Shown in pieces: positions 17,650-43,616 of a stretch of 64,000 bases of DNA. The position numbers and the translations under genes were made by a program. This DNA comes from Gemmatimonadota bacterium. GTDB lineage: Bacteria > Latescibacterota > UBA2968 > UBA8231. Where the stretch lies: contig JAYOYH010000006.1 of NCBI GenBank assembly GCA_038153405.1, positions 47,894 through 111,893 on the forward strand. The letters are read 5' to 3'. Numbering within the stretch: position 1 is the stretch's first letter; the number at the start of each line of letters is the position of its first letter. The notes below the pieces were generated by a model. The model was not told where the DNA came from. It saw only the letters and a list, made by a program, of their open reading frames with translations, and did no database searches.

Positions 17650-17697
17650 TGAGGCAAAAATGTCTCATCCTCTGTCCTTTGTGCTATATTTGTCACA
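17650..17697. promoter_or_regulatory. Pair of 18-bp palindromes, putative sigma54 enhancer
   Basis: TGAGGCA-AAAA-TGTCTCA (17650-17667) and TGTGCTA-TATT-TGTCACA (17680-17697), 30 bp apart. Confidence 0.65.
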
Positions 17698-17738
17698 CCA
17701 GATGCGTTTACGTCCCGTGTAAACAGGGGGTTGATGCC

Positions 17739-17754
17739 CGGCACGGAAATTGCC
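17739..17754 (+). promoter_or_regulatory. Sigma54 (-24/-12) promoter of the PilZ-NtrC operon
   Basis: CGGCACGGAAATTGCC, matching GGCAC-N5-TTGC. Confidence 0.7.
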
Positions 17755-17801
17755 CCGTAAAGAGATAGAGAATCGACACACTCTTTTCGGAGGAGTCCGG
17801 T

Positions 17802-18653
17802 GTGAACGCTCTTTGGTTGAGTATCGTCTGGATTGGGTTGGGGCCGGGGCGCGCTTGGGCCGTGGACAAAAGCTATTCCAAGGCGCTCAAGCACATCGAA
17901 ATCAAGAGTTCGGGCAGCTTGGGAACGTCCGGCCAAGAACTGGTGCCCATTCTGCTGACGGTGGTCGCACTCGTAGTCGCCATCGCGCTATATCAGAAAT
18001 ATAAGGAGCGGCGTACGGCAAAAAAGAGCAGCGGTCCGCAAGCCAAGAGGCAGCCTGGTTTTAGTGAGCATGCGGCTAAGATGGGATTCCAGCGCGCCGA
18101 GATTCACCTGCTCGAATCGGCGGCTGAAAAGGTATCGCCGCTGCGCATGGCTCAGCTGCTAGATACAGATGCCGGGCGTCACCAACTGGCCAGCGAAATA
18201 AAAAAGCGCGCGCTGCGCCGCGAGCGCGAGCTGCGCTTACTGCGCGGAATGAGTAGAAAATTGAGTACCAGAGGCCATATCGAGGAACGCGCATCCGCGC
18301 GCGTGGAGATGCACTTGCCCGTTGGCGTTGTGCCGGGCCTGATGGCCGAAGAGGTCGACGGCGAATGGAACGATGTTCAACAGGTCGATGGCATAATCGT
18401 AGACCTGAGCGAGGGCGGCGCAGCGCTGCACGCCGATCTTGCGCTGGATGCCGGCGATTCGCTGGCATTCTGGTCTGCCGATCCGGATGTGTGGCTACCG
18501 CCCACGACGGCTCAGATCCTGCATGTGGAAGCGCTGGGCAAGGGGGGGGTGTTTCACCTGCAGCTGTTGGAAGCTCCCAGCGAAGAACTGCGCGCAGCAA
18601 TCAGCGCGTTACGGCCCGAAGGGGTCTGTGATCAGGACGCAGTGAGCAATTAA
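17802..18653 (+). CDS. Membrane-anchored PilZ-domain protein
   Basis: GGAGGAG SD; signal-like N-terminus plus one TM helix; RASAR (RxxxR) and DLSEGG (DxSxxG). Confidence 0.8.
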   Translation: MNALWLSIVWIGLGPGRAWAVDKSYSKALKHIEIKSSGSLGTSGQELVPILLTVVALVVAIALYQKYKERRTAKKSSGPQAKRQPGFSEHAAKMGFQRAEIHLLESAAEKVSPLRMAQLLDTDAGRHQLASEIKKRALRRERELRLLRGMSRKLSTRGHIEERASARVEMHLPVGVVPGLMAEEVDGEWNDVQQVDGIIVDLSEGGAALHADLALDAGDSLAFWSADPDVWLPPTTAQILHVEALGKGGVFHLQLLEAPSEELRAAISALRPEGVCDQDAVSN

Positions 18654-18718
18654 CATCCGCCGCAGCACGCCCCATTGATTATTGGGGCGTGCTGCGCAGC
18701 GGAATGCGGAGAATATGT

Positions 18719-20149
18719 ATGAGTGGCGAACGAATACTGGTAGTTGACGACGAAGTCGAGTTGGCGATGCGCTGTCAGCAGCTCTTAAAGGGCAAGGGCT
18801 ATGAAGTCGATATCGCGGCCAATGGCGTTGAGGCGCTAGATAGAATGGCCGCTGGCGAGCCGCACTTGCTGATTACCGATCTCAAAATGCCCGGCATGAG
18901 TGGCATGGAACTGCTCGAGCGCGCCAAGGAGCAGTTTCCCGACGTGCAGGCCGTTATGATGACGGCCTACAGTACGGTGCAAGACGCCGTCGAGGCGATG
19001 CGCCTAGGGGCGGATGACTTCGTGCCCAAACCCTTTTCTCCAGAACATCTGCTCATCGTCGTGCAGAAGGTATTGGCCAAACGCCAGCTGCACGAGGAAA
19101 ACCGCCACCTGAAAAAACAGCTGGACCAGCAGTACGGATTCGGAAACATCATCGGCAAGAGTCCGTCGATGGTGGCCATTTTCGAATCGATGCGCAAAAT
19201 TGCCGATGCGCAAATTAACGTGCTGGTCACGGGCGCGTCGGGCACGGGCAAGGAACTGATCGCCCGCGCTATTCACGCGCGCTCTTCGCGCAGCCATCGT
19301 CCCTTTGTCGCCCTCAACTGCGGCGCTATCCCCGAGCACCTCGTAGAGAGTGAAATCTTCGGCTACGAGCGCGGGGCTTTCACCGGCGCGGCTAAGACCA
19401 AACTCGGCCTGTTGGAGACGGCCAACGGCGGCACCTTCTTCATGGACGAAATCGGCGAATTGCCGGCTCTGATGCAGGTGAAGTTTCTGCGCGTTCTGCA
19501 GGACGGTACGTTCCGTCGCTTGGGCAGCAACGACGAACGCGAGGTCGATATCCGTCTGATCAGCGCCACGAATAGAAAGTTGGAAGACCTGGTTTCCGAA
19601 GGCACTTTTCGCGAAGATCTCTACTACCGCGTCAACACGTTTACCATTGAGATCCCCTCGCTAAAAGATCGCCGCGACGATATCGAACTCTTGGCCAGCC
19701 ACTTCTTGCAAAAATACGGCGAAAAGAACGGCAAATTCGTCTCCGGTATTTCGGCTGACGCGCTGCGTCTGATGCTGGCCTACGAGTGGAAGGGCAACGT
19801 GCGCGAGTTGGAGCACGCCGTCGAGCGCGGGCTGGTGCTGGCCAGCGGGGATAGGGTGGAGCCAGAGGATCTGCCCCAGGCCGTATGTGCAGCGCGCGTC
19901 GATGCAGCTGAAGCCGTGGTGACACAGCTGTACATGGAAAGGCCATTCAAGGAGGCCAAGGCGCTTATAGTAGAAGATTTCGAGAAGCACTATATCGCCG
20001 AGGTGCTCACCCGGCATGGGGGTAATATTTCGCGTGCGGCAGCCCACAGCGGCATCGATCGCCGCTCGCTGCACAGGCTATTGCTCAAGCACGAAATCGA
20101 TGCGTCGGAAATGGGGCGCAGAGCCAAGGAACAGGCTGTAGGTCAATAA
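18719..20149 (+). CDS. Sigma54-dependent response regulator (NtrC family; REC-AAA+-HTH)
   Basis: ILVVDDE, TDLKMPG, GASGTGKE, GAFTGA, FFMDEIGE, FREDLYYR, WKGNVRELE, C-terminal Fis-type HTH. Confidence 0.96.
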   Translation: MSGERILVVDDEVELAMRCQQLLKGKGYEVDIAANGVEALDRMAAGEPHLLITDLKMPGMSGMELLERAKEQFPDVQAVMMTAYSTVQDAVEAMRLGADDFVPKPFSPEHLLIVVQKVLAKRQLHEENRHLKKQLDQQYGFGNIIGKSPSMVAIFESMRKIADAQINVLVTGASGTGKELIARAIHARSSRSHRPFVALNCGAIPEHLVESEIFGYERGAFTGAAKTKLGLLETANGGTFFMDEIGELPALMQVKFLRVLQDGTFRRLGSNDEREVDIRLISATNRKLEDLVSEGTFREDLYYRVNTFTIEIPSLKDRRDDIELLASHFLQKYGEKNGKFVSGISADALRLMLAYEWKGNVRELEHAVERGLVLASGDRVEPEDLPQAVCAARVDAAEAVVTQLYMERPFKEAKALIVEDFEKHYIAEVLTRHGGNISRAAAHSGIDRRSLHRLLLKHEIDASEMGRRAKEQAVGQ

Positions 20150-20173
20150 ACCACCGCGCGAGCCTTGTCCTGT

Positions 20174-20214
20174 AAAAGCGCTGTGTGTGCCGAGAGGCCG
20201 CACCGGCGCTTTTT
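20174..20214. terminator. Probable bidirectional terminator between the ntrC-like gene and nuoN
   Basis: AAAAGCGC...GCGCTTTT imperfect hairpin between convergent genes. Confidence 0.5.
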
Positions 20215-20285
20215 GTTTGCAGGCGCCTGATGGGTTGGCTGGTGTAGGAGGGGTTGCGCCGCCGTGTGCAGCGCAACGATTGGCG

Positions 20286-21698
20286 CTAGCCGAGCGCCTC
20301 TGCTGCGCGGGCGGCCATATCCCAGAAGCGACCGGGGAAGGTGCCTAGCCCTAAAACCAGCGCCATGGAAGCCAGCGCCGTTATGCGCACGAAAGGCCCC
20401 ACTTCGACGGGCGGTGCGTCGGGGGCATCTTCTAAGTACGCGGCGCGCAGAACGATCAGATAGTAGTAGAGCGCGACTACGCTGTTGAGGGCCGCGACCA
20501 ATACCAGGCCAAATTGCCCCTGTTCGAGCGCAGCGGAAAAGAGGAACCACTTGCCTATGAAACCCACGGTGGGCGGAAGACCGATTAGGCCAAAAAGGCC
20601 GATCATCAGCGTTGCCGCCAGCAGCGGCGAGCGGTGGTGCAGGCCCTTGAGCGCGTCGATGGAAGCCGCATCGCTGTCGCGATTGACCTCGCAGACGACG
20701 ACAAAGCAGGCAAAAGACATGACGAGGTAGCCCAGCGCGTAGAATAGCGCCGAGCTAAAGCCCAGTGGGCCCCCGGTCTGTATGCCGATCAGCACGTAGC
20801 CTGCGTGTGCAACGGCCGAGTAGCCCAGCAGTCGCTTGAAGTCGTTCTGCACTAGGGCGGCAAAGTTGCCCAAGGTCATAGCGGCAATGCTGAGCCACAT
20901 GAGGATTGTCGTTATCTGCACGTCTGTCATTAGCGCCGTGAGGCGGCACAGGAGCGCGATGGCGGCCACCTTTGATACAGTAGCCAAATACGTAACGACT
21001 TCGTGCGGTGCGGCCTGATACGTATCGGGCGCCCAGAAGTGAAAGGGAAAAGCGCCGAGCTTAAAGAGGAAGCCGGCCATCAGCAGCGCTACACCGACCC
21101 AGAGTAGAGGCTGGCCGGTAGCCGCCGGTAACTGCCGCGCGAACTCGCTGAAGTAGGTGGAGCCAAATACGCCGTAGAGAAAGGACATGCCGTAGAGCGA
21201 AACGGCCGAAGCGATCATGCCCTGCACCATGTATTTTGTCGATGATTCACCGCCGCTTTCCACGCTGCGATGCAGTGCGACGCCGATGTAGAGCGGATAG
21301 GCGGCCAGTTCCATGGCGATGTAGAGGGTGAGCAATTCGGTGGCGCTGACCATCATCATAGCGCCCAGGGTGGCGAAGAGAAGGAACATGGGGAATTCAA
21401 CCCAAGCGCTGCGATCGATCGTGTTGGGTTGGCTGCTGATCGCTACGACGAGGAGAAAGCCCAGTGCCAGGGCGGCTTTGGCGAATTGCGAAAAGAAGTC
21501 GACGCGATAAATACCCTGCGCAAAGGGCTGACCGCTTGCACCTAATGTCCAAAGAGCTGCAAGTAGAGCGAGCGCGCCGCCGAACAGCGCTAATAACCAT
21601 GCCGTGCGATAGCGCGATTCGAATATCGGGCAGGCAAAGAGCGCTAGTCCTGTTATGATCAGCGCCAGTTCGGGCGCAAAGAGCAGGGCGTCAGACAT
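20286..21698 (-). CDS. nuoN: Complex I subunit N
   Basis: FKLGAFPFHFWAPDTY, KRLLGYS, GLPPTVGFIGKW; position in operon. Confidence 0.95.
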   Translation of the reverse strand: MSDALLFAPELALIITGLALFACPIFESRYRTAWLLALFGGALALLAALWTLGASGQPFAQGIYRVDFFSQFAKAALALGFLLVVAISSQPNTIDRSAWVEFPMFLLFATLGAMMMVSATELLTLYIAMELAAYPLYIGVALHRSVESGGESSTKYMVQGMIASAVSLYGMSFLYGVFGSTYFSEFARQLPAATGQPLLWVGVALLMAGFLFKLGAFPFHFWAPDTYQAAPHEVVTYLATVSKVAAIALLCRLTALMTDVQITTILMWLSIAAMTLGNFAALVQNDFKRLLGYSAVAHAGYVLIGIQTGGPLGFSSALFYALGYLVMSFACFVVVCEVNRDSDAASIDALKGLHHRSPLLAATLMIGLFGLIGLPPTVGFIGKWFLFSAALEQGQFGLVLVAALNSVVALYYYLIVLRAAYLEDAPDAPPVEVGPFVRITALASMALVLGLGTFPGRFWDMAARAAEALG

Positions 21699-21699
21699 A

Positions 21700-23172
21700 T
21701 TAGAACCTTCCCAGCAGCACGGCAGTCGTCTGGTTTATGGTGTTGAGCATGGCATTGGGATAGAAGCCAAAAAATACCAGGACCGCGACGAGAATAGCGC
21801 GCGGCAATAGCTGCATGCCGCGCATGTCCTGCGTGCGCAGTCCATCCCAGCGCGGGTTGGGCGGGCCGTAAAAGGCAAGGGCAAAAACGCGCAGAATATA
21901 AACGGCGGTCAGAACCAATCCGCCGATGATCGCTACACCAATGATTGGATAGGTCTTTAGCGCGGCGAGAAATACCAGCAGTTCCGGCCAAAAGCTGGCC
22001 AGACCAGGCAAGCCGGCGCCGCACAGGCCAGCGATGATAAAGAGCGATACGGCGCGCGGCATTTGCGAGCCGAGGCCGCCGAAATCAGTCAGTGTTTTGG
22101 AGTGGGCGCGGTCGTAGATAAAGCCGACGGTGCTAAAGAATAGCGCGGTCATTACGCCATGCGCGAACATTTGAAAGACGGCGCCGTTGAGCGCATCGGC
22201 GCCCGCTTTGCCAAGGGCGGCCAGATTGAGGCCGAGCAGCACTACGCCCATGTGCGAAACGGAGGAAAAGCCGATGACGAATTTAAAATCGCTCTGGCGC
22301 ATGGCGACAAAGGCGCCGTAGATAATGCCGATAGCCGCTAGCACGGAAAAGGTCGGTGCCCAGTAGACTGCTCCTTCGGGTAGGAGGCGCATGCCGACGA
22401 CCAGCACGCCAAAGGCGCCCAGTTTCATTAGCACGCCGGCGTGCAGCATCGATACGGCCGAGGGCGCGGCGACGTGTCCAGTCGGCGACCAGCCGTGAAA
22501 GGGAAACATACCGGCCAGCACGCCAAAGCCGAGGTAAATAAATGGATAGCAGAATACCTGGAAATCGGGGTCAAAGGCGTGCGAGGCGAGAGCAACCATG
22601 TCGAAGGTATGCATACCCGCCTCGTGGTAGATGGCCAACAGGCCAGGGAATAAGAGTGCGCTGCCGGCTAGGAGAAATACCATGAGCTTCATCGCCGCAT
22701 AGTCTTTGTTGCCGCTGCCCCAGATTAGGATTAGGGGATACATCGGCACCACGGCGATTTCGTAGAAGAAAAAAAGAAAGAATAGGTCCTGCGACATAAA
22801 TACGCCGTACACGCCAATGACTAACAGCACCATAAAGGCGAAGTATTCTTTGACGCGGTGTTGCAGATCCCACATTGTCAGGACGCCGGTGAAATAGACG
22901 ATTGAGTTGAGTAAGATGAGGACGGTGCCGAAGCCATCGACGGCGACGTGGTAGGCGATGCCCACGCCATCGACCCAGGGAATGCGCTCGATAAACTGCA
23001 GCCCGCCGTCGGCGCTGTCGTAGGAAAAGAACAGCTGTAGGCTAAGCGCGCTGGCCGCCAGTCCGCTCAGCGCGCACAGCCAGCGAATGGCCGATACCGC
23101 GCGCGCCGGCACGAGCAGCAAGATACAGAGCGTGAGCGTGGGAACGAGAAGTATGTAGCTCAGAAGCGGCAT
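21700..23172 (-). CDS. nuoM: Complex I subunit M
   Basis: FFFFYEIAVVPMY, PFHGWSPTGHVAAP..SMLHAGVLMKLG, SSVSHMG. Confidence 0.95.
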   Translation of the reverse strand: MPLLSYILLVPTLTLCILLLVPARAVSAIRWLCALSGLAASALSLQLFFSYDSADGGLQFIERIPWVDGVGIAYHVAVDGFGTVLILLNSIVYFTGVLTMWDLQHRVKEYFAFMVLLVIGVYGVFMSQDLFFLFFFYEIAVVPMYPLILIWGSGNKDYAAMKLMVFLLAGSALLFPGLLAIYHEAGMHTFDMVALASHAFDPDFQVFCYPFIYLGFGVLAGMFPFHGWSPTGHVAAPSAVSMLHAGVLMKLGAFGVLVVGMRLLPEGAVYWAPTFSVLAAIGIIYGAFVAMRQSDFKFVIGFSSVSHMGVVLLGLNLAALGKAGADALNGAVFQMFAHGVMTALFFSTVGFIYDRAHSKTLTDFGGLGSQMPRAVSLFIIAGLCGAGLPGLASFWPELLVFLAALKTYPIIGVAIIGGLVLTAVYILRVFALAFYGPPNPRWDGLRTQDMRGMQLLPRAILVAVLVFFGFYPNAMLNTINQTTAVLLGRF

Positions 23173-23184
23173 ATCGATCCTTTC

Positions 23185-25017
23185 TCAGCGCAGTCCAATA
23201 TAGAGCGCGGCCAATCCCACCAGCACAATCGTCGCCCCGGCGTAGAATTGCAACCAGCCGTTTTGCAGGCGCGAGGCGCTGCCGCCGGCGCGGACGGTGC
23301 CGTGCCCCACTTGATCAAAGCCGTCGTCAAAAAGGCGCGACTCAACGGCAAAGAACAGGGCCGAGAGCGCGTCGTTAAGCCGGACGAAGACCGCGCGGTA
23401 GATCTCATCGATATACCAGCGATTGACAAAGAGCGTTTGCAGGGCGGGCACGGCGGCGATGAAGCCGCGCCGCGCCGCGCCTTTGCGCCCGAAGTCGAGA
23501 TAGGCGATGGCGATGCCGAAGAGCACCACGCCGATGGCCGGCAACATAGAATTCAGATCGTGATGTGCTGGCGCAGCGCCCAGCTGCGCGGCGATGGATG
23601 CGCCGTAAAAGCCGAGCACGACGGCACCGGCAGCCAGCAAGACAATGGGCGCCATCATAACGGCGGGCTGGGCCGGACCGTGGTGATGGTCGCCGTGTGC
23701 CTCTTCGAGTTTGTCGGGCAGGACGATCAGGAACAGCATGCGCGCGGTGTAATAGGCTGTCAGAAAGGCGGCCAACAGGGCGGCGATGGAAAAAAGCGTA
23801 GCACCGTCGTGACCCAGCGCGGCGAAGATCTCCTCTTTGGAGAAAAAGCCGGCCAGCGGGGGAACGCCGGCTAGTGCGCCGGCGCCAACGGCTAGGGCCA
23901 GCGTCGTCAGGCCGAGAGAGCGTCCACCGCGTCGCCCAATTTCCCGCATATCGTTGGTGGCAAAGTGGTGTATGTAGACGCCTGAGCACAGAAAGAGCAG
24001 GGCCTTAAAGACAGCGTGCGTGATCAGGTGGAACACGCCGGCAAAGAGGCTGCCGGCGGCCAGGCCCATGAGCATAAAGCCGAGCTGGCTGATCGACGAG
24101 TAGGCCAATACCTTCTTTATATCGGTGGCTACCATGGCGATAGTTGCCGCGAACAGTGCGGTAAAGGCCGCTATGGCGAGTACGACGTTGAGCGCTGTAG
24201 GAGCGGCCACAAAGAGGGGGTGCAGGCGCGCCATGAGGTAGACACCGGCGGCTACCATCGTCGCCGAGTGCAGCAGCGCGCTGACGGGCGTGGGGCCTTC
24301 CATGGCATCGGGCAGCCAGGTGTGCAGCGGAAACTGGGCACTCTTGCCAACGATGCCCATAAAGATCAGCAGCGTGATGGTGCTGAGTGCTGGCCCAGCC
24401 AGTTTTACTAGGCCCGTCTCCGGATCGAGGAGTGCGGGCAGGTCGAAATTATTGGTCAACGGCAGGATCATCAGGATGCCGATAAAGAGGCCGACATCGC
24501 CAATGCGCGTCATGAGAAAGGCCTTGCGCGCAGCGGCGCTGGCCTCGGGCTTCTCGTACCAGAAGCCAATGAGGAAAAACGACGCGAGGCCAACCAATTC
24601 CCAAAAGATGAACGACTGCAGCAGGTCGACGGCGTAGACAAAGCTGAGCATGGCCCAGGCGAAAAGCGAGAGCATGGCAAAGTATCGCGCGCGGCCCGGA
24701 TCGTCGGCCATATAGCCGAGGGAGTAGATCATAACGCAGAGCGTAATAAGCGCTACGGCCACGCCGAACATTAGGCTAATGCCGTCGAGCAAAAAGCCGA
24801 ACTGCAGGTGAAGTTGTCCGCTGGAAAACCACGCAAAGCGCAGCGGTTCGGTCGGCCCCTGCAGCAGCAGGCCGGCGCTGCCCAAGAGCGCCAGCACCGC
24901 ACCGGCGATAGAAACCAACTGCGCCAAGCGCGGCTGGCCGTTGAGAAAAATCAGCGCAATAAAAAAAGCAGGCAGCGGCGAGAGGGTGGCCAGGAGGGCG
25001 AGTGTGAGCGTATCCAC
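23185..25017 (-). CDS. nuoL: Complex I subunit L
   Basis: WELVGLASFFLIGFW, KSAQFPLHTWLPDAMEGPTPVSALLHSATMV, HAVFKALLF. Confidence 0.96.
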   Translation of the reverse strand: MDTLTLALLATLSPLPAFFIALIFLNGQPRLAQLVSIAGAVLALLGSAGLLLQGPTEPLRFAWFSSGQLHLQFGFLLDGISLMFGVAVALITLCVMIYSLGYMADDPGRARYFAMLSLFAWAMLSFVYAVDLLQSFIFWELVGLASFFLIGFWYEKPEASAAARKAFLMTRIGDVGLFIGILMILPLTNNFDLPALLDPETGLVKLAGPALSTITLLIFMGIVGKSAQFPLHTWLPDAMEGPTPVSALLHSATMVAAGVYLMARLHPLFVAAPTALNVVLAIAAFTALFAATIAMVATDIKKVLAYSSISQLGFMLMGLAAGSLFAGVFHLITHAVFKALLFLCSGVYIHHFATNDMREIGRRGGRSLGLTTLALAVGAGALAGVPPLAGFFSKEEIFAALGHDGATLFSIAALLAAFLTAYYTARMLFLIVLPDKLEEAHGDHHHGPAQPAVMMAPIVLLAAGAVVLGFYGASIAAQLGAAPAHHDLNSMLPAIGVVLFGIAIAYLDFGRKGAARRGFIAAVPALQTLFVNRWYIDEIYRAVFVRLNDALSALFFAVESRLFDDGFDQVGHGTVRAGGSASRLQNGWLQFYAGATIVLVGLAALYIGLR

Positions 25018-25019
25018 GG

Positions 25020-25325
25020 CTATCCCTTTAGGGTTGTGATGTGTTCGGAGTCAATTTCGCGGCGCTGGCGGTAGAGTCGCAGAATGATCGAAAGAAAGAT
25101 GGCGACCTCAGCAGCGGCCAGTCCGATAATGATGAGCACGAAGACCTGGCCGACGGCGGGGTCCTGAACCACGTAGCGATTAAAGGCCATAAAGTTGAGA
25201 CTGGCTGCATTCATCATCAGTTCGACGCCGATGAGCACGGCGATGAGGTTGCGCTGTGAAAGAGCAGCTACCAGTCCGAGCGAAAAGAGCACGAGGCCGA
25301 GTACCAGGTAGGATTCGAGTGTCAT
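25020..25325 (-). CDS. nuoK: Complex I subunit K
   Basis: RNLIAVLIGVELMMNA, AAAEVAI. Confidence 0.95.
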   Translation of the reverse strand: MTLESYLVLGLVLFSLGLVAALSQRNLIAVLIGVELMMNAASLNFMAFNRYVVQDPAVGQVFVLIIIGLAAAEVAIFLSIILRLYRQRREIDSEHITTLKG

Positions 25326-26399: not shown

Positions 26400-26414
26400 T
26401 GCGGTCTCTCGTCT

Positions 26415-27392: not shown

Positions 27393-27395
27393 CTC

Positions 27396-29028: not shown

Positions 29029-29030
29029 AA

Positions 29031-29561: not shown

Positions 29562-29569
29562 ATAACTCC

Positions 29570-30078: not shown

Positions 30079-30127
30079 TGGGGGAATCGTGTCTCGCTGT
30101 GGTTTGAATTGGGGTCTATTCGTCACA
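30079..30127. promoter_or_regulatory. Pair of degenerate 18-bp palindromes between divergent sigma54 promoters
   Basis: TGGGGGA-ATCG-TGTCTCG (30079-30096) and TGGGGTC-TATT-CGTCACA (30110-30127), 31 bp apart. Confidence 0.5.
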
Positions 30128-30189: not shown

Positions 30190-30205
30190 TGGCATGTAGC
30201 TTGCA
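30190..30205 (+). promoter_or_regulatory. Sigma54 promoter of the sigma factor gene
   Basis: TGGCATGTAGCTTGCA (GG-N10-GC, TTGCA). Confidence 0.75.
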
Positions 30206-30236: not shown

Positions 30237-31085
30237 ATGATTACTCAAACAAACGCTACAAATACAGCCGATGGTCTGCAGGCCTATTGGCGCGATATCA
30301 GCCGCTGCGAGCCGCTGAGTCGAGTGGAGGAAGCGCAGTTGGTGGAGAGGGCACATGCCGGCGACGACGAGGCGATGCAGGCGTTAGTGTCGGCCAACTT
30401 GCGCTTTGTCGTTCGAGTAGCACGCAATTATGCTCGTTCGGATATGCCGCTAGGTGAACTGATATCGGCGGGTAATTTGGGTCTGATGCGTGCAGTGCGT
30501 AATTTTGACGCCACGCGCGGCTACAAATTTATCACCTATGCCGTGTGGTGGATACGCCAGGCCATATGCAAGGCGATGGACGGTATGGTGCGCGACGTGC
30601 GGCGCCCGTCAAACCAGCTACTCGATATGAAGCACGTCGAGAGCGCGACGCGCAGGCTTGAACAGCAGCTGGGTCGCGTTCCAAGCATCGATGAGCTCGC
30701 AAAAGAGACGGGCTATATGAGCGACCGGATGCGCAACGCAATTCAGTCGGGCTGGGGTGAAGTGCCACTCGATAATCCCTCAGGGGGCGACCAGCAGGAC
30801 CCCCAACTCGATCTGCTACCCGACCCGAGCGACTCTATTGAAGAAGAGCACGAGCGCCGCGAATTGCACGTGCTCCTGCACGAGTCGATGGCGGCGCTGA
30901 GCCCGCGCGAGCGGCGCGTGTTGGATGCCTATTACGGCCTTGGCGGCGCCGCAGAGATCAGCTTGGAAAGGATCGGAATTAGCCTGGGGCTTACGCGTGA
31001 ACGGGTTCGTCAAATTCGCGATCGCGCGTTGCAAAAGATACGCATGCGACAGGGCGCGCGGTTGGTAGAATATTGCCGTAAATAG
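30237..31085 (+). CDS. Alternative sigma70 factor (RpoD/RpoS-like, lacking region 1.1)
   Basis: GGAGGA SD; ANLRFVV, GNLGLMRAV..FD..RGYKFITYAVWWIRQAI, TRERVRQI. Confidence 0.93.
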   Translation: MITQTNATNTADGLQAYWRDISRCEPLSRVEEAQLVERAHAGDDEAMQALVSANLRFVVRVARNYARSDMPLGELISAGNLGLMRAVRNFDATRGYKFITYAVWWIRQAICKAMDGMVRDVRRPSNQLLDMKHVESATRRLEQQLGRVPSIDELAKETGYMSDRMRNAIQSGWGEVPLDNPSGGDQQDPQLDLLPDPSDSIEEEHERRELHVLLHESMAALSPRERRVLDAYYGLGGAAEISLERIGISLGLTRERVRQIRDRALQKIRMRQGARLVEYCRK

Positions 31086-31101
31086 AGGGAATGGGCGATT
31101 C

Positions 31102-31130
31102 TTGTCGCACCTGTAGAAATACAATATACT
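31102..31130 (+). promoter_or_regulatory. Sigma70-type promoter of pckA
   Basis: TTGTCG-17 bp-TATACT. Confidence 0.5.
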
Positions 31131-31194
31131 ATGCTCACGCGGCGGGAGAGCTGTCCTCCCGCCGTTTTCCGTTCAGCATTCGAAGAGAGAAGCG

Positions 31195-32778
31195 ATGGAA
31201 GAGTGCATAGATCTCAGCGAACATCAGATATATGTAGAGCGCGCGTGGCGGAATATCGCACCGGCCAAGCTCTACGAAGAAGGGCTGCGCTATGAGAGGG
31301 GGTCGGCCATTTCCAATGCCGGCGCTCTCGTAGTGTCTTCCGGCGCTAAAACTGGCCGCAGTCCCGGAGATAAGCGCATTGTCGACCATCCCGATACCAG
31401 TGGAGATATTTGGTGGGGATCGGTCAACATCAAGCTGCAAGAGCACACGTTCAGGATTAATCACGAGCGCGCGATAGATTACCTCAACACCTGTGAGCGC
31501 CTCTATGTGGTGGACGGCTTTGCCGGCTGGGATCCCAAGTATCGCCTGAAGATACGCATCGTCTGTTCGAGAGCCTACCACGCCCTCTTTATGCACAATA
31601 TGCTCATTCGTCCGACGCCCGATGAACTGGCCGATTTTGGCGAGCCGGACTTCATCATCTACAATGCCGGGCGTTTTCCGGCTAATCGCTATACTTCGGA
31701 AATGACGTCAACGACGAGTATTGACCTGAGCTTTGAGCGCCGCGAAATGGTCATTCTCGGCACGGAGTACGCCGGGGAAATGAAGAAGGGCATCTTCACG
31801 GTGATGAACTACCTGATGCCCAAGCGCGGGCAGCTTTCCATGCACTGCTCGGCCAATCGCAGCGCAGCGGGCGACGTGGCGCTCTTTTTCGGCCTGTCGG
31901 GCACGGGCAAGACCACCCTATCGGCCGACCCGCGTCGCCAGCTAATTGGCGATGACGAACACGTGTGGAGCGATGAGGGCATCTTCAATATAGAAGGTGG
32001 GTGCTACGCCAAATGCATTGACCTGTCTGCGCAGAAAGAGCCCGAAATCTATCAGGCCATTCGCTTTGGCTCGGTGCTAGAAAACGTCGTCTACGATGAG
32101 CAGTCGCGATCCGTCGACTATGCCGATGGATCGCTGACGGAGAATACGCGTGCGGCATATCCCATAGACTATATCCCCAATGCGGCCATTCCCTGCGTCG
32201 GCGAACATCCGCGCAATATCATTTTTCTCACCTGCGATGCCTTTGGCGTGCTGCCGCCGGTAAGCCGCCTGAGTGCAGCGCAGGCGATGTATCACTTTAT
32301 CAGCGGCTATACCGCGAAAGTCGCCGGCACGGAGATGGGCGTTACCGAACCTGAGGCGACGTTTTCGGCCTGCTTTGGCGCCGCCTTTATGGTGTGGCAT
32401 CCAAGCGTGTACGCCGAGCTTTTGGCAGAGAAGATTCGCCGACACGAGGTGCGCGTTTGGATGGTCAATACGGGCTGGACGGCAGGTGGCTACGGCGTTG
32501 GGCAGCGCATTGCACTAGCGCACACGCGCGCCATTATCGATGCCATTCACGACGGCGCGCTCGACGGCGCCGAGACCGCGCGCGATGCGCGCTTTGGCTT
32601 TGAGGTCATTGCCGCGTGCCCGGGGGTTCCATCGCAGGTGCTCGTGCCGCACGCGGCGTGGTCCGATCGTTCGGCCTACGAAGAGAAAGCTGCTCAGCTG
32701 GCGGCTCTGTTCAAGAAAAACTTCGAAAAATTCGCCGCGCAAACCGGTGGGGATATCGCGGAGGCCGGGCCGGTGTAG
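31195..32778 (+). CDS. pckA: Phosphoenolpyruvate carboxykinase (ATP)
   Basis: [41 protein letters not shown]. Confidence 0.98.
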
Positions 32779-37213: not shown

Positions 37214-37234
37214 ATTATTGCGACAAGTAGCTGC

Positions 37235-37444
37235 TTATAGGGCTATGACGCCCTCGGCGGCCAAGCCCTTCTGGCCTTGGACGACGCTGAATTCCACTTT
37301 CTGTCCTTCGGACAGGGAGCGGAAACCCTCCGAGCGGATCGAGGAGTGGTGGACGAACACGTCGTCACCGCTCTCGCGCTGGATAAAGCCAAAGCCCTTG
37401 GCGTCGTTGAACCACTTGACGGTTCCGGTCTCGCGATCTGCCAT
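37235..37444 (-). CDS. cspA: Cold-shock protein (CspA family)
   Basis: [33 protein letters not shown]. Confidence 0.96.
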
Positions 37445-37755: not shown

Positions 37756-37828
37756 TGCGCCACGCCTGCCGCAAGGGCAAGGGATATCATGCGTGACTGC
37801 CACAGCCCATTGAGACATAAACATCTCG
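37756..37828. promoter_or_regulatory. Two 18-bp palindrome-like sites upstream of the usp-PFOR promoter
   Basis: TGCGCCA-CGCC-TGCCGCA (37756-37773) and TGAGACA-TAAA-CATCTCG (37811-37828). Confidence 0.45.
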
Positions 37829-37902: not shown

Positions 37903-37918
37903 TGGCATTGCGTTTGCT
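37903..37918 (+). promoter_or_regulatory. Sigma54 promoter of the usp-PFOR-DHOD-like operon
   Basis: TGGCATTGCGTTTGCT (GG-N10-GC, TTGCT). Confidence 0.75.
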
Positions 37919-37961
37919 ATCTACTCGGTGTTCGCAGCGCACTTATCTGAGGAGGCATTCC

Positions 37962-38423
37962 ATGATTCACGCGAAGAAGATTCTCATACCGACGGATCTG
38001 TCCGAGGAAGCGCGCCACGTATTACCCTACGCCGTCGAATTTGCTCGTTCGTATGGGGCGAAGATTATACTGGTACACGTCGTCGATGCGCGTTGGGTTG
38101 GGCCAGTGGCCAGCGCGGAGTTCCCCGGGATGGTGGAAGACCAAATCGATAGCAGCAAGACGGCCGCCACACAGGTCATGGAGGAGATGCGCATCGAACT
38201 GGGCGACTTGGAGGTCGAGACGCAGGTGCTGATCGGGTCGCCGCACGTGGAGATCGTGCGCTATGCGCGCAGCGAAGACGTCGACTTAATCATTCTGGCC
38301 ACGCACGGAAGAACGGGCTTGGCGCACGCGCTAATCGGCAGCGTCGCCGAGAAAGTTGTGCAAATGGCACCGTGCCCAGTGCTGACGCTCAAGCATCCGG
38401 AACACGAATTTGAGCTGTCCTAA
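37962..38423 (+). CDS. Universal stress protein
   Basis: GAGGAGG SD; KILIPTDLS, DLIILATHGRTG...IGSVAEKVV..APCPVL. Confidence 0.95.
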   Translation: MIHAKKILIPTDLSEEARHVLPYAVEFARSYGAKIILVHVVDARWVGPVASAEFPGMVEDQIDSSKTAATQVMEEMRIELGDLEVETQVLIGSPHVEIVRYARSEDVDLIILATHGRTGLAHALIGSVAEKVVQMAPCPVLTLKHPEHEFELS

Positions 38424-38444
38424 AATAGCTCGGGAGGGGAACTC

Positions 38445-41400
38445 ATGCAGCGCAAGATGATTGCGGTAGACGGCAATGAGGCCGCGGCCTATGTCGCACA
38501 TAAGGCGAGTGAAGTGATCGCCATTTATCCGATAACTCCCTCTTCGCCTATGGGGGAACTGGCCGATGCGTGGTCGTCGTCTGGCCGGACCAATATCTGG
38601 GGGCAGGTGCCAACAGTCATCGAGATGCAAAGCGAGGGCGGCGCCGCCGGTGCGCTGCACGGTGCGCTGCAGGCCGGCGCGCTGGCGACGACCTTTACCG
38701 CCTCACAGGGTCTGCTGCTGATGATTCCCAATATGTATAAGATCGCCGGTGAATTGACGCCCTTTGCCATGCACGTGGCCGCTCGTTCGTTGGCTGCGCA
38801 GGGCTTGTCGATTTTCTGCGATCACAGCGATGTCATGGCGGTGCGCCAGACGGGGTTTGCTATGCTCGCTTCGTCCTCGGTCCAGGAGGCTATGGACATG
38901 GCGCTCATCGCCCATGCAGCAGCGCTCGAAGCGCGCCTGCCTTTCCTGCATTTTTTTGACGGCTTTCGCACCTCGCACGAGGTGGCTAAGATCGAGGCGC
39001 TGTCCGATGAGGATATACGCGCGCTGATCGATGACGAGTGGGTGCGCGCACATCGCGCGCGCGCGCTGAGTCCCGACCATCCAATGATGCACGGCACGGC
39101 GCAAAACCCGGATATCTACTTTCAGGGACGCGAAACGGTCAACCCGTTTTACGAACGGGTGCCGGCTGTCGTCCAACGCCTCCTCGATCGGTTGGGCCAG
39201 CGCGTCGGCCGTCGTTACCGGCTGTTCGAATACGCTGGTGCAGCCGACGCCGAGCGCGTTATTGTGCTGATGGGTTCCGGTTCCGAGGCCGCACTTGAAA
39301 CGGTTGAGGCAATGCGAGCTGCCGGGGAAAAAGTAGGCGTGCTACGCGTACGCCTCTATCGCCCCTTTTCCGCCGAGCACTTTCTGCAGGCCCTCCCCGC
39401 CAGCGTGAAACGCCTCGCCGTGCTCGATCGAACAAAAGAGCCCGGTTCGCTCGGCGAGCCGCTGATGCTCGACGTGCTAGCCGCGGTCGACGTGGGCGAC
39501 CGTGCGCTGCAGGTGTGCGGCGGCCGCTATGGATTGGGATCCAAGGAGTTTACTCCTGCCATGGTCAAAGGGGTGTTCGATGAATTGGCCAAAAGCGCGC
39601 CGCGCAAGCGCTTTACCGTTGGCATCGACGACGATGTGTGCGGCACCAGCATCGAATACGACCCCTCGTTTAGCACGGAGAAAAGATCGGTGATGCGCGC
39701 CGTGTTTTACGGGTTGGGATCAGACGGCACGGTCGGAGCCAACAAGAACTCGATCAAGATCATCGGCGAAGAGACGGATAATTTCGCACAGGGCTACTTT
39801 GAATACGATTCGAAAAAATCAGGGGCGATGACGATTTCGCACCTGCGCTTTGGTCTCGAACCTATCCACTCGACCTACCTAATCGAACGGGCTAATTTTG
39901 TCGCCTGTCATCAGGCCGTATTTCTCGACCGCTTTGACGTGCTGGAAAAGGCCGAAGAAGGGGCGACATTCCTGCTCAATACGGCGGCGCAACGGGACGA
40001 GGTGTGGGACAGCCTGCCCCGTATAGCGCAGGAGCGCATTATTCAGCGCAAGATCAAACTCTATGCCATCGACGCGCACGCGGTGGCCAGCCAGGCGGGT
40101 ATGGGCGGGCGGATAAATACGGTCATGCAGACCTGTTTCTTTGCCCTTGCGGGCGTTTTGCCGCGCGACAGGGCGATTGCTTCGATCAAAGATGCCATCG
40201 GCAAGACATACGGCAAGCGCGGCGAGGAAATCGTCGTGCGCAACTGCGCGGCCGTGGACCGCGCGCTGGAAAATCTGCACTGCATCAAAGTGCCCGCGCA
40301 GGTGACCAGCAAGATCGAATTGGAAAGGATTGTCCCAGACAGCGCGCCCGATTTTGTGCGCGAGGTAACGTCGGTCATGATGGAGCGCCGGGGGGATTCG
40401 TTGCCTGTGAGCCTGATACCGATCGACGGCGCGTTTCCAACGGATACGGCCCGCTGGGAGCGGCGCAATATAGCCCAAGAAATACCGGTATGGGATTCCG
40501 ATACGTGCATTCAGTGCAATAAGTGTGCGCTGGTCTGTCCGCACGGTGCCATCCGCGCCAAGATCGTGGAAGAGAGCGATCTTGTCGGTGCGCCGGCGGG
40601 GTTTATGACGGTGCCCCTGCGCGGTCGCGGTTTCCCCGATGGCGCCCATTACGCTCTGCAGGTAGCGCCTGAGGACTGCACCGGCTGTGCACTGTGCGTA
40701 GAAGTGTGTCCGGCCAAGAATCGGCAGGAATCGCGTCTCAAGGCGATTAATATGCAGGACCAGACCGCGCTGCGCGAAGGCGAGCGGGCCAACTGGACGT
40801 TCTTCCGCGCGCTGCCGGAATACGACCGCCGCAAACTCAAAGTAGGGCAGGTCAAGGAGTCGCAGTTCCTGCAGCCGCTCTTCGAGTTTTCTGGCGCCTG
40901 CTCAGGCTGCGGCGAGACGCCCTACGTCAAGCTGATCAGCCAGCTCTTTGGCGATCGCTCGGTTGTGGCCAATGCCACCGGATGCTCGTCGATTTACGGC
41001 GGCAATCTGCCGACGACGCCGTGGGCCAAAGACGCGGCCGGGCGCGGCACTGCCTGGTCGAATTCGCTCTTTGAAGACAATGCCGAATTTGGGTTGGGCA
41101 TGCGCTTGGCCATCGATAGCCACAAGGCACGGGCCATTGCATTGCTCCACGACGTTGGGGAGTGCATTGGCGCACAGCGGATCGAAGCGCTTATCGGCGC
41201 CGACCAGAGCGACGAGGCGGGCATCTACGCACAGCGACAGCGTGTGGCCGATCTAAAGGCGATGTTGGCCGAGGTGCCGGGTGATTCGGCAAGGCAATTG
41301 ATCGAATTAGCCGACTATTTGGTGAAGAAAGATGTGTGGATTATGGGCGGCGACGGCTGGGCCTACGACATTGGCTTTGGTGGACTCGATCACGTTCTCG

Positions 41401-41978
41401 CATCGGGTGCCGACGTCAATGTTTTAGTAATGGACACGGAAGTATACTCCAATACCGGCGGACAGATGTCCAAGGCGACGCCGCGCGCCGCAGTGGCCAA
41501 ATTTGCCGCCGGCGGCAAGCGCGAGCGCAAAAAAGATTTGGCGCGCTTTGCCATGGGCTACGGCAACGTATACGTCGCCAGCATCGCCATGGGCGCTTCC
41601 GACGCACAGGCCGTACGCGCGATCGTCGAAGCCGAAGCCTATGTCGGTCCCTCGCTGGTCATCGCCTATTCGCACTGCATTGCGCACGGCATCAATATGC
41701 GATTGGGGATGGAGCAGCAGAAGGCCGCCGTCGACTCGGCCTACTGGCCGCTGTTCCGCTACCATCCGGCGCGGGGGTTTTCTCTGGACTCGAAAGAAGC
41801 GAAGATTCCATTCAAGGAGTATGCAATGAAAGAGGCGCGCTATGCCATGCTGGCGCGCGGCAAACCACAGGAGGCCGAGCAGCAGCTGCGCCGGGCCCAG
41901 CAGGACGTCGATGAGCGCTGGGCGTACTACAGTCAGTTGGTCGAGTCCAATGACTTGGGGCAGCAGGCGGCAGGTTGA
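38445..41978 (+). CDS. nifJ: Pyruvate:ferredoxin (flavodoxin) oxidoreductase, fused NifJ type
   Basis: IYPITP, QSEGGAAG, GLGSDGTVG, two CxxCxxCxxxCP, GACSGCGE, ATGCSS, GGDGWAYDIG. Confidence 0.98.
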   Translation: MQRKMIAVDGNEAAAYVAHKASEVIAIYPITPSSPMGELADAWSSSGRTNIWGQVPTVIEMQSEGGAAGALHGALQAGALATTFTASQGLLLMIPNMYKIAGELTPFAMHVAARSLAAQGLSIFCDHSDVMAVRQTGFAMLASSSVQEAMDMALIAHAAALEARLPFLHFFDGFRTSHEVAKIEALSDEDIRALIDDEWVRAHRARALSPDHPMMHGTAQNPDIYFQGRETVNPFYERVPAVVQRLLDRLGQRVGRRYRLFEYAGAADAERVIVLMGSGSEAALETVEAMRAAGEKVGVLRVRLYRPFSAEHFLQALPASVKRLAVLDRTKEPGSLGEPLMLDVLAAVDVGDRALQVCGGRYGLGSKEFTPAMVKGVFDELAKSAPRKRFTVGIDDDVCGTSIEYDPSFSTEKRSVMRAVFYGLGSDGTVGANKNSIKIIGEETDNFAQGYFEYDSKKSGAMTISHLRFGLEPIHSTYLIERANFVACHQAVFLDRFDVLEKAEEGATFLLNTAAQRDEVWDSLPRIAQERIIQRKIKLYAIDAHAVASQAGMGGRINTVMQTCFFALAGVLPRDRAIASIKDAIGKTYGKRGEEIVVRNCAAVDRALENLHCIKVPAQVTSKIELERIVPDSAPDFVREVTSVMMERRGDSLPVSLIPIDGAFPTDTARWERRNIAQEIPVWDSDTCIQCNKCALVCPHGAIRAKIVEESDLVGAPAGFMTVPLRGRGFPDGAHYALQVAPEDCTGCALCVEVCPAKNRQESRLKAINMQDQTALREGERANWTFFRALPEYDRRKLKVGQVKESQFLQPLFEFSGACSGCGETPYVKLISQLFGDRSVVANATGCSSIYGGNLPTTPWAKDAAGRGTAWSNSLFEDNAEFGLGMRLAIDSHKARAIALLHDVGECIGAQRIEALIGADQSDEAGIYAQRQRVADLKAMLAEVPGDSARQLIELADYLVKKDVWIMGGDGWAYDIGFGGLDHVLASGADVNVLVMDTEVYSNTGGQMSKATPRAAVAKFAAGGKRERKKDLARFAMGYGNVYVASIAMGASDAQAVRAIVEAEAYVGPSLVIAYSHCIAHGINMRLGMEQQKAAVDSAYWPLFRYHPARGFSLDSKEAKIPFKEYAMKEARYAMLARGKPQEAEQQLRRAQQDVDERWAYYSQLVESNDLGQQAAG

Positions 41979-41988
41979 GGAGGCGATA

Positions 41989-42978
41989 ATGGACCTGAGA
42001 GCGAATTACATGGGCTTAGAGTTGAAAAATCCGCTGGTAGTGTCGGCTTGTCCGCTATCGCGCGACGTGGACAATGTGCGGCGGATGGAAGATGCCGGTG
42101 CCGCAGCCGTGGTGATGTTCTCTCTATTTGAAGAGGAGATTCGCCACGAGATGCTGGAACTGGATCACTTTCTCGACTACGGCACGCACAGTTTTGCCGA
42201 AGCGCTGGACTACTTTCCCGAGCACGAGCAGTACGACGTTGGTCCACACGCTTATTTGGAGCACGTGCGGGCGCTGCGCGCTGCAGTAGACATTCCCATC
42301 ATAGGCAGTCTGAACGGCGTGGCAGTTGGAGGCTGGGTAGAATATGCGCGCTTAATAGAGGACGCCGGGGCCGATGCGCTGGAATTAAATATCTACCACA
42401 TTCCTACCGAAATTGAACAGTGCGGTGAAGACATCGAACAACTGCATCTGGATATACTGCGCTCCGTTAAAGATTGCCTAAATATTCCCATCGCGGTGAA
42501 GCTGAGTCCATTTTTTAGCTCGATGGCCCATATGGCACGCCAGTTCGACTGGGCCGGGGCCGATGCGCTCGTTCTGTTCAACCGCTTTTACCAGCCCGAT
42601 ATCGACCTCGATTCGCTCGAAGTCGTGCCGAGCGTCAAACTCAGCACCTCGCATTCGATGCGTCTGCCGCTGCGTTGGATTGCTATTTTGAGCGGTCGCG
42701 TGCGCTGCGACTTGGCTGCTAGCAGCGGCATTCACTCGGCGCGCGATGTGCTCAAAATGGTGATGGCTGGCGCCGACGTGGCGATGATGGCTTCGGCACT
42801 ATTGCGCAATGGTATCGATCATATCGCCCACGTATTGGGCGATATGAGGACGTGGATGGAGGAAAGGGAGTACGCATCGCTGGGCCAGATACGGGGTAGT
42901 ATGAGCCACGCCAAATACGCCGACCCAACGGCATTTGAACGGGCCAATTACATCAAGGCGCTCAACACCTACGCGTGA
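41989..42978 (+). CDS. Dihydroorotate dehydrogenase-like flavoprotein
   Basis: GAGGAGG SD; LKNPLVV, IIGSLNG, GADALELN, PIAVKLSP, LFNRFYQPD, SGIH. Confidence 0.9.
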   Translation: MDLRANYMGLELKNPLVVSACPLSRDVDNVRRMEDAGAAAVVMFSLFEEEIRHEMLELDHFLDYGTHSFAEALDYFPEHEQYDVGPHAYLEHVRALRAAVDIPIIGSLNGVAVGGWVEYARLIEDAGADALELNIYHIPTEIEQCGEDIEQLHLDILRSVKDCLNIPIAVKLSPFFSSMAHMARQFDWAGADALVLFNRFYQPDIDLDSLEVVPSVKLSTSHSMRLPLRWIAILSGRVRCDLAASSGIHSARDVLKMVMAGADVAMMASALLRNGIDHIAHVLGDMRTWMEEREYASLGQIRGSMSHAKYADPTAFERANYIKALNTYA

Positions 42979-43027
42979 GCGCGGCTGCAGTCTGCAGGGC
43001 ATAGCGTGGCCAGCCTCGTGCCGTGTG

Positions 43028-43498
43028 CTATACCCTCGCCCGGCGCGTGTTGTCCACCAGCTGTTGGCGCGTAGCCTCTAGGCGCTGGGTGGTGATCTGC
43101 ACCAGGCGGCGCAGCAGTTCATAGCCCATGTCTGGATGGGCATCGCACAGGGCGCGCAGCGCTTCGGCTTCTAGTGCAACGGTCCGCGTGTCTTCCACGG
43201 CGCGGGCGTCAAAGCGCCATCGGTAGGGTGGGACCATCCACGACCAGCCGAGAATCTCATCGGGGTCAACGGCCTGAACTGGAATGCCTCCGGTCTCTAG
43301 TGCGACGCGCCCGTGAAAAATCAAAAAGAAATGCTCGGCCCGCTCACCCTGGCGCCCCAAATAGGCGTCGCCGGCATAGACTTTGTCTTCTGCGCATGAG
43401 GCTAGTAAGTGTAAATGAGCCTTGTCCATGCCGCGGAAAAAATGGTGTTCCCCTATGGCATTGGTGAATTGCTGTACTCGATCGCTATTCATGTCCAT
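43028..43498 (-). CDS. Stand-alone cyclic-nucleotide-binding domain protein (no HTH)
   Basis: QGERAEHFFLIFHGRV, EILGWSWMVPPYRWRFDARA. Confidence 0.88.
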   Translation of the reverse strand: MDMNSDRVQQFTNAIGEHHFFRGMDKAHLHLLASCAEDKVYAGDAYLGRQGERAEHFFLIFHGRVALETGGIPVQAVDPDEILGWSWMVPPYRWRFDARAVEDTRTVALEAEALRALCDAHPDMGYELLRRLVQITTQRLEATRQQLVDNTRRARV

Positions 43499-43567
43499 TC
43501 CTCTCTTCCTCAGTGAGCTATACGGGCAAAGCGCTTGTGTCCGTGGAGATCGCAGCAGGTGTTTTTC

Positions 43568-43616
43568 AGAGACGTGGCAGTCCCAAAGAAAAGCCTATCG
43601 AGACCTAGCAGTCCCA
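43568..43616. promoter_or_regulatory. Pair of 18-bp palindrome-like sites, putative sigma54 enhancer
   Basis: AGAGACG-TGGC-AGTCCCA (43568-43585) and CGAGACC-TAGC-AGTCCCA (43599-43616), 31 bp apart. Confidence 0.6.

What the first reader, a model, noticed from the sequence alone, without database searches (positions are those of the whole stretch)
17650..43616. Recurring paired 18-bp palindrome at three-helical-turn spacing, a candidate enhancer motif
Sites: TGAGGCAAAAATGTCTCA and TGTGCTATATTTGTCACA (30 bp apart); TGGGGGAATCGTGTCTCG and TGGGGTCTATTCGTCACA (31); AGAGACGTGGCAGTCCCA and CGAGACCTAGCAGTCCCA (31); TGCGCCACGCCTGCCGCA and TGAGACATAAACATCTCG (55). Rough consensus TGNGNCA-N4-TGTCYCA. 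All lie roughly 75-165 bp upstream of the predicted sigma54 starts, the usual position of tandem enhancer sites. The best site precedes the operon encoding the activator, suggesting positive autoregulation. Individual sites are degenerate and were aligned by eye.
Basis: partly seen in the sequence, partly recalled or inferred. Interest (0 to 1): 0.7.

Follow-up and report, generated by a model that had tools for sequence, protein, structure and literature searches.

The report
Sigma54 enhancer of low-oxygen regulon
These paired 18-base palindromes are a real DNA signal, conserved across an uncultured bacterial group, that likely lets the neighbouring sigma54 activator, predicted to take its cue from a FixL-type oxygen sensor, switch on genes for life at low oxygen.

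Summary
All eight sites are where stated. The motif is real: consensus T-G-(A/G/T)-G-A-C-(A/G)-N4-(T/C)-G-T-C-(T/C/A)-C-A. A matrix trained on other genera ranks the four window promoters 1, 3, 4 and 5 of 103 sigma54-like promoters genome-wide. All 11 held-out loci of the local activator's orthologues carry motif plus -24/-12 box; 94 unrelated activator loci give 2 units. In 71 held-out genomes the unit occurs in 10 of 11 with the activator and 10 of 60 without. Corrections: spacing is two or three helical turns (15 pairs at 19-22 bp, 19 at 29-33 bp, of 40), and the 55-bp partner is not conserved; a weak site 19 bp away fits better. The likely binder is the NtrC-family activator at 18719-20149. 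A FixL-type haem-PAS kinase (44095-45708) travels with it, and the targets (PFOR, Usp, HemN, corrinoid enzymes) suggest a low-oxygen regulon in Candidatus Latescibacterota. It works like Myxococcus NmpR but has a different site and sensor. Binding, signal and direction are untested. I found no paper describing it.

The parts
17650..17667 (.). enhancer site, distal; best-scoring site in the whole genome (18.0 bits)
   Evidence: kept in G001, G005 and other genera
17680..17697 (.). enhancer site, proximal, 30 bp from the distal one (13.2 bits)
17739..17754 (+). sigma54 -24/-12 box of the PilZ-activator operon
   Evidence: conserved upstream of orthologues
17802..18653 (+). membrane-anchored PilZ-domain protein, first gene of the activator operon
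   Evidence: Pfam PilZ E 1.3e-6
18719..20149 (+). NtrC-family sigma54 activator (receiver, AAA+ with GAFTGA, Fis-type HTH); predicted binder of the motif
   Evidence: D54, K104 and helix residues G445-L455 invariant in 14 aligned sequences
30079..30096 (.). enhancer site, distal (8.4 bits)
   Evidence: aligned sites in G001 and G005
30110..30127 (.). enhancer site, proximal, 31 bp offset (9.0 bits)
30190..30205 (+). sigma54 box before a sigma70-family sigma factor gene
30237..32778 (+). predicted targets: RpoD/RpoS-like sigma factor (30237-31085) and possibly PEP carboxykinase (31195-32778)
37792..37809 (.). weak site 19 bp upstream of 37811; matches the 19-20 bp pair seen at orthologous promoters
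37811..37828 (.). enhancer site of the Usp-PFOR operon (14.3 bits), the conserved anchor
37903..37918 (+). sigma54 box of the Usp-PFOR operon
37962..42978 (+). predicted targets: universal stress protein, pyruvate:ferredoxin oxidoreductase, dihydroorotate-dehydrogenase-like protein
43568..43585 (.). enhancer site, distal (14.1 bits)
43599..43616 (.). enhancer site, proximal, 31 bp offset (11.4 bits)
43668..43683 (+). sigma54 box before thioredoxin (43719-44054)
44095..45708 (-). hybrid histidine kinase PAS-HK-REC with a FixL-type haem-PAS domain; predicted oxygen input
   Evidence: best PDB hits are FixL haem domains, E 8e-37; His and IIGxGR loop kept in relatives

Best explanation
The paired palindromes are conserved sites 75-165 bp upstream of sigma54-type promoter boxes, and they are likely the enhancer bound by the NtrC-family activator at 18719-20149, which would be switched on by a FixL-type haem sensor kinase to drive a predicted low-oxygen regulon. 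Shown: the sites, their conservation, their position, their 20- or 31-bp phasing, the activator's intact receiver, GAFTGA and helix, and co-occurrence of motif, activator and kinase. Inferred from how NtrC-family proteins work: two dimers bind on one face of the helix, phosphorylation drives oligomerisation, DNA loops to sigma54 polymerase, and the activator raises its own synthesis in this family. Inferred from gene linkage and target content: the signal is oxygen, read by the haem-PAS kinase directly or through a relay, with activation at low oxygen as in rhizobial FixL (recalled). My odds: real enhancer 0.95; this activator binds it 0.85; oxygen or redox input through the haem-PAS kinase 0.6.
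For: Four window promoters rank 1, 3, 4, 5 of 103. 11 of 11 held-out orthologue loci carry motif plus box (15 units, one site counted on both strands, in 120 kb) against 2 units in 934 kb of 94 unrelated activator loci. Only the 6-bp core spacer is enriched: 20 hits against 0-3 for spacers 3-10. First 61 genomes: 68 units against 9 reversed-pattern controls in 18 genomes with the activator, 29 against 30 in 43 without. Held-out genomes: 10 of 11 against 10 of 60. 6 of 7 held-out PFOR promoters have a site of 12 bits or more plus a box. The kinase PAS matches FixL haem domains; 12 of the 15 relatives with the kinase also have the activator; it lies beside the activator in G020, G021, G026, G031, G035, G106, G123, G126, G128, and a plain PAS kinase of the same haem type directly precedes it in G058, G059, G082. 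Targets in relatives include HemN-like, corrinoid methyltransferase and RACo, FeoB, PFK/GAPDH, cytochrome c and YceI proteins. RpoN is present. The one Crp-family gene found lacks an FNR-type cysteine cluster.
Against: Units occur without a detected activator in drafts G029 (5), G040 (3), G055 (2), G064 (3), G122 (2), and near-perfect sites with boxes occur in the single-contig genomes G047, G062 and G079; G029's PAS has lost the haem His. With one search's strict pattern G059, G106, G012, G014 and G042 have the activator or part of it but no unit. In the window the kinase lies 24 kb from the activator, is a hybrid of the CckA type, and several genera co-transcribe a different HAMP kinase with the activator that this genome appears to lack (best match 36-38%); G038 and G081 have a Tll0287-type periplasmic sensor kinase there. 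Related genomes are not independent, so the tallies overstate significance.
Confidence: 0.72

Rival explanations
1. Same enhancer and same activator, but the input is not oxygen through the FixL-like kinase; another kinase or signal (periplasmic sensor, c-di-GMP through the PilZ protein) controls it.
For: A different kinase is co-transcribed with the activator in G013, G026, G030, G035, G123, G125, G126, G128 (HAMP type) and in G038, G081 (Tll0287 type); the window's FixL-like kinase is a hybrid 24 kb away; some targets (thioredoxin, sigma factor, small peptides, efflux pumps) are not specific to anoxia.
Against: The haem-PAS domain stays linked to the activator in several families and is the sensor of the directly adjacent kinase in G058, G059, G082; PFOR, Usp and HemN-like targets recur.
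Confidence: 0.14
2. The sites are sigma54 enhancers but are bound by another of the genome's 13 activators, most plausibly the PAS-AAA-HTH protein at G000:C70:3050-4402, or shared with a sister subfamily.
For: 13 activators in the genome; the C70 protein sits next to the local activator in G005, G013, G027 and 14 of its 17 relatives' genomes also hold the local activator. Genomes with sites but no orthologue (G040, G062, G078) hold activators with a similar helix.
Against: G002, G004 and G094 have the C70 protein, no local activator found, and 0 units each; 9 of 13 genomes with the local activator but no C70 match have units, among them two-contig G021 and G061. The recognition helix is invariant exactly where the motif is kept.
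Confidence: 0.09
3. A Crp/Fnr-family or other non-sigma54 factor binds the sites (the motif resembles a CRP site with two extra bases; CRP consensus recalled).
For: TGTGA...TCACA variants occur among the sites; the genome has one Crp-family gene.
Against: Crp-family genes are in 56 of 132 class genomes, including G002, G003, G006, G007, which have 0 units; the four promoters match the 16-bp CRP pattern with 2-5 mismatches of 10; the sites sit upstream of -24/-12 boxes.
Confidence: 0.03
4. Chance palindromes aligned by eye.
For: Single sites are degenerate: 502 genome positions score 8 or more and most are coding; the 37756 site does look like chance.
Against: Shuffle, held-out and cross-genome controls.
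Confidence: 0.02

Closest known systems
NmpR of the Myxococcus xanthus NmpRSTU system (PMC11841059; abstract, passages and section 16 read)
   Same: NtrC-like sigma54 activator, two dyad sites per promoter, oxygen-linked multi-kinase input, Usp and HemN targets, sites in its own system's promoters. Its 14-15, 5 and 24 nt gaps between 15-nt sites equal 29-30, 20 and 39 bp start to start, the same set as here (29-33, 19-22, 40).
   Different: Site GCGCA-N5-TGCGC matches the four promoters with 2-4 mismatches of 10. Its sensor NmpU needs haem (section title) and is a globin-type kinase (recalled), not a FixL-type PAS.
TspR of Acidithiobacillus caldus (review PMC6335251; passages read)
   Same: sigma54-dependent response regulator whose reported site, TGTCCCAAATGGGACA, uses the same half-site as one variant here and equals the junction of two sites 20 bp apart.
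   Different: Half-sites are in the opposite order with a 2-bp gap. In 26 orthologue loci that arrangement occurs 5 times, 4 of them as the junction of two 18-bp sites, against 39 for the 18-bp form. Targets are sox genes. TspR's sequence was not recovered.
NtrY/NtrX of alphaproteobacteria
   Same: Closest solved HTH is NtrX (5m7n, E 1e-5); Brucella NtrY is a haem-PAS redox sensor (PMC7240162, passages read).
   Different: NCBIfam NtrX score 394 against cut-off 600. The window protein keeps GAFTGA and its sites precede -24/-12 boxes; NtrX is reported to lack GAFTGA (recalled).
Rhizobial FixL/FixJ
   Same: PAS domain aligns with FixL haem domains, keeping the His and the IIGIGR loop.
   Different: FixL score 229 against cut-off 850, CckA-type hybrid architecture. 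FixL's partner FixJ is a LuxR-type regulator acting through FixK or NifA (recalled); here the linked partner is a sigma54 activator.
Desulfovibrio vulgaris enhancer motifs (PMC4641369; passages and section 6 read)
   Same: Same method and same picture: small regulons, activator genes beside their promoters.
   Different: The text names TGT-N9/11/12-ACA groups and yGTCA-N6-TGACr; neither fits all four promoters. The 33 logos are in a figure and supplements I could not see.

Membership tests
sigma54 enhancer (UAS) of an NtrC-family activator | dyad sites roughly 80-150 bp upstream of a -24/-12 promoter | tested here: met
   median 108 bp from site start to box over 59 anchors, searched within 35-230 bp
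sigma54 enhancer (UAS) of an NtrC-family activator | tandem sites in helical phase | tested here: met
   34 of 40 partners at 19-22 or 29-33 bp, 2 more at 40
sigma54 enhancer (UAS) of an NtrC-family activator | RpoN and an intact activator (receiver Asp, GAFTGA, HTH) in the genome | tested here: met
sigma54 enhancer (UAS) of an NtrC-family activator | motif tracks the activator across genomes | tested here: met
   with the exceptions listed
sigma54 enhancer (UAS) of an NtrC-family activator | IHF site or bend between enhancer and promoter (common, not required) | tested here: inconclusive
   0 of 59 exact matches to a recalled IHF pattern; A+T 54% before the box against 44% upstream; 4 HU/IHF-family genes
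sigma54 enhancer (UAS) of an NtrC-family activator | protein binds the site and activates sigma54 transcription | not testable with these tools
   needs EMSA, DAP-seq or reporters
NmpR regulon | GCGCA-N5-TGCGC site | tested here: not met
   2-4 mismatches of 10
NmpR regulon | orthology to NmpR | not tested
   no NmpR sequence came from a tool
TspR regulon | TGTCCCA-N2-TGGGACA as the unit | tested here: not met
TspR regulon | orthology to TspR | tested here: inconclusive
   80 metagenome loci with the site gave no identifiable tspR
NtrX, NtrC, AtoC, ZraR equivalogs | NCBIfam score over cut-off | tested here: not met
   394/600, 412/559, 469/714, 391/760
FixL-type haem-PAS sensor | PAS with proximal His and FG-loop motif | tested here: met
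   His kept in 13 of 15 PAS hits among 19 loci, the misses being G029 and an unrelated PAS, and in 6 of 6 PAS hits among 11 held-out loci
FixL-type haem-PAS sensor | haem binding and oxygen-controlled kinase activity | not testable with these tools
   needs spectroscopy and kinase assay

The most novel reading that the evidence does not exclude
One class of Latescibacterota has wired a FixL-type haem oxygen sensor straight onto a sigma54 enhancer-binding activator, skipping the FixJ/FixK or FNR tier, and uses this self-amplifying switch, with its own 18-bp enhancer on a 10-bp phasing grid, as its master regulator for the move to anaerobic metabolism.
Probability: 0.45. Interest if true: 0.58.

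Novelty: new variant of a known kind. Interest (0 to 1): 0.42.

Why it matters
It gives a transcription-factor site and regulon for an uncultured phylum for which my searches found no regulatory paper, and a sequence marker for which lineages likely switch between oxic and anoxic metabolism: the activator was found in 27 of 168 phylum genomes at E <= 1e-16, all in one class. If the kinase link holds, it is another independent route from a haem oxygen sensor to sigma54, beside NmpRSTU, and shares NmpR's 20/30/40-bp phasing with a different site. All parts can be tested in E. coli or in vitro. The logic itself is textbook, so the surprise is moderate.

Tried and rejected
Genome-wide pair histogram with the raw consensus was too sparse to show phasing. 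The GTDB-wide scan returned only generic activators at 38-48% identity and served as the negative set. A sigma54 box facing the nuo operon (29984, minus strand) is not kept in G001 or G005, so nuo is not counted as a target. No box faces the cNMP-domain gene at 43498 in this genome, although G005 and G031 have one. Sites at 31092 and 3010 have no sigma54-like box downstream among those listed. A restriction or methylation site with the same GAC-N6-GTC core (DrdI type, recalled) was rejected because the sites cluster at promoters with conserved flanks. The TspR-site scan gave no tspR locus; 3 of 80 matches extend into an 18-bp site. No structure or complex prediction was run: kinase-receiver pairs tend to pass by likeness. 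Paper searches: 0 papers; 1, unrelated by its listing; 1; 0; 1, listing only; 1, listing only; none of the listings describes this motif or system. The library lacks most subscription journals; figures were not visible and supplements were not opened. Earlier scan findings: none returned.
Full report
Observation. The eight 18-mers are present at the stated coordinates, each pair followed on the + strand by a -24/-12-like box, with site centres 76-165 bp upstream of the predicted starts. The window is G000:C6:47894-111893. The closest named homologues of the local activator are labelled Candidatus Latescibacterota, a few Gemmatimonadota. The four boxes precede a PilZ protein plus an NtrC-family activator, a sigma70-family factor (then pckA), Usp-PFOR-DHOD-like genes, and thioredoxin. 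Gene calls are from my own simple caller.

Is it more than chance? Orthologues of the activator at 54-92% identity were found in relatives, and the palindrome with a box recurs around them. It puts 17650 first in the whole genome, and the four window promoters 1st, 3rd, 4th and 5th of 103 intergenic sigma54-like candidates; outside the window 2 of 99 reach 13 bits against a mean of 0.15 for 60 permuted matrices. Dinucleotide shuffles give p of 0.001 or less for each promoter. Held-out tests: 6 of 7 PFOR promoters not used in training carry site plus box, G016 being weak; all 11 activator loci first seen carry a unit, 15 in 120 kb, against 2 in 934 kb of 94 unrelated activator loci; only the 6-bp core spacer is enriched. 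Single weak sites remain uninformative: 502 positions score 8 or more.

Anatomy. Over 59 anchor sites in 29 genomes the half-site is T84 G100 (A39/G38/T17) G99 A91 C96 (A65/G21), mirrored around four free bases (anchors were selected by the matrix, so these figures lean towards it). Of 40 anchors with a partner of 5 bits or more, 15 lie at 19-22 bp, 19 at 29-33 bp, 2 at 40, and one each at 23, 25, 55, 63. So the rule is helical phase, two or three turns. Elsewhere in the genome, 19-20 bp pairs precede boxes on C59, C26, C22 and C4 (the last three weak), and a strong single site lies on C2. C59 and C26 lead into similar 32- and 38-residue ORFs and have sites in G001 and G005.

Which protein binds? 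The genome has 13 sigma54 activators and RpoN. In 61 genomes a motif-plus-box pattern gave 68 hits against 9 reversed controls in 18 genomes with the local activator (counting split or partial copies in G011, G012, G042) and 29 against 30 in 43 without. In 71 further genomes a stricter pattern hit 10 of 11 with and 10 of 60 without, 32 against 0 and 13 against 10 controls. Relatives are not independent, so I read these as strong agreement, not as p-values. The recognition helix is invariant over 14 aligned sequences. A second activator often linked to it (C70) and the Crp family both occur in genomes with no units. Against: units without a detected orthologue in G029, G040, G055, G064, G122 and good sites in G047, G062, G079. 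Some are assembly gaps: G033's contig ends just after an activator-type promoter. Some may reflect a sister subfamily with a similar helix; G047 is unexplained.

What is the signal? The kinase at 44095-45708 has a PAS domain whose seven best PDB matches are FixL haem domains, with the His and IIGxGR loop kept in 13 of 15 PAS hits and 6 of 6 in held-out loci. 12 of the 15 relatives with this kinase have the activator. It is the activator's neighbour in nine genomes of this family, and in G058, G059 and G082 a plain kinase with the same PAS directly precedes the activator. Genes downstream of units in relatives include PFOR, Usp, HemN-like radical SAM, B12-binding and RACo proteins, FeoB, PFK/GAPDH, a response regulator, cytochrome c, YceI and a peroxiredoxin. 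The single Crp-family gene found here has one cysteine and is not FNR-like (genome 93% complete). I infer a low-oxygen regulon. The direct phosphodonor in this genome is open: the FixL-like kinase is a hybrid, and the HAMP kinase co-transcribed with the activator in other genera has no close match here.

Comparison. It works like NmpR of Myxococcus xanthus, a tested oxygen-linked sigma54 activator with two sites at the same phasings and Usp and HemN targets, but the site differs. TspR's reported site shares the half-site in reverse order; here that form appears mainly as the junction of 20-bp pairs. NtrX is the nearest solved HTH but the family cut-off is not met. The Desulfovibrio study shows that such motif-activator pairs are routine. 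A paper on sponge Latescibacterota reports coexisting aerobic and anaerobic processes and has no mention of two-component systems (passages). Ten searches found no description of this motif or system.

Verdict. A real, conserved sigma54 enhancer, with corrected spacing rule and a probable cognate activator; a new variant of a known kind because of the new site and the FixL-type input. Interest 0.42.

Noticed in passing
window 17802-18653: The PilZ protein has a hydrophobic N-terminal stretch and both RxxxR and DxSxxG motifs (c-di-GMP signature, recalled); homologues precede the activator in G001, G005, G013, G026, G027. A possible second input.
   Followed up: partly
window 20286-29938: Eleven-gene nuo operon (A-D, H-N, no E/F/G) divergent from the sigma-factor promoter; the enhancer pair lies in the shared intergenic region, but a sigma54 box facing nuo is not conserved.
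   Followed up: partly
window 31092-31109: Single motif copy (9.0 bits) between the sigma factor gene and pckA, kept in G001, with no sigma54 box found after it.
   Followed up: partly
window 43028-43498: Stand-alone cNMP-binding domain without a DNA-binding domain, divergent from thioredoxin; relatives G005 and G031 give it a sigma54-like box, this genome does not.
   Followed up: partly
G000:C59:1209-1307 and C26:13205-13321: Two similar hydrophobic ORFs of 32 and 38 residues with no Pfam match, each behind a 20-bp site pair and a box; C59 continues into YceI-like and an unannotated secreted protein.
   Followed up: partly
G000:C2:54313-54990: A strong single site and box drive a 133-residue cysteine-rich ORF with no Pfam match, just downstream of another activator gene; a 16-bp variant of the palindrome lies about 100 bp further upstream.
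   Followed up: no
L157 (G047:C1) 9404 and 17425-17464: Near-identical perfect sites with identical boxes 8 kb apart in a complete genome where no orthologue of the activator was found.
   Followed up: partly
L159 (G042:C2) 9866-11140: Four motif copies beside a fragmented copy of the activator gene.
   Followed up: no
L292-L371: The 16-bp TspR site occurs as a stand-alone palindrome in many unrelated metagenome contigs; only 5 of 80 have a close sigma54 match nearby, so other regulators may use it.
   Followed up: no
window 37235-37444: Small minus-strand ORF of 69 codons upstream of the Usp promoter, called by my gene finder, not annotated.
   Followed up: no
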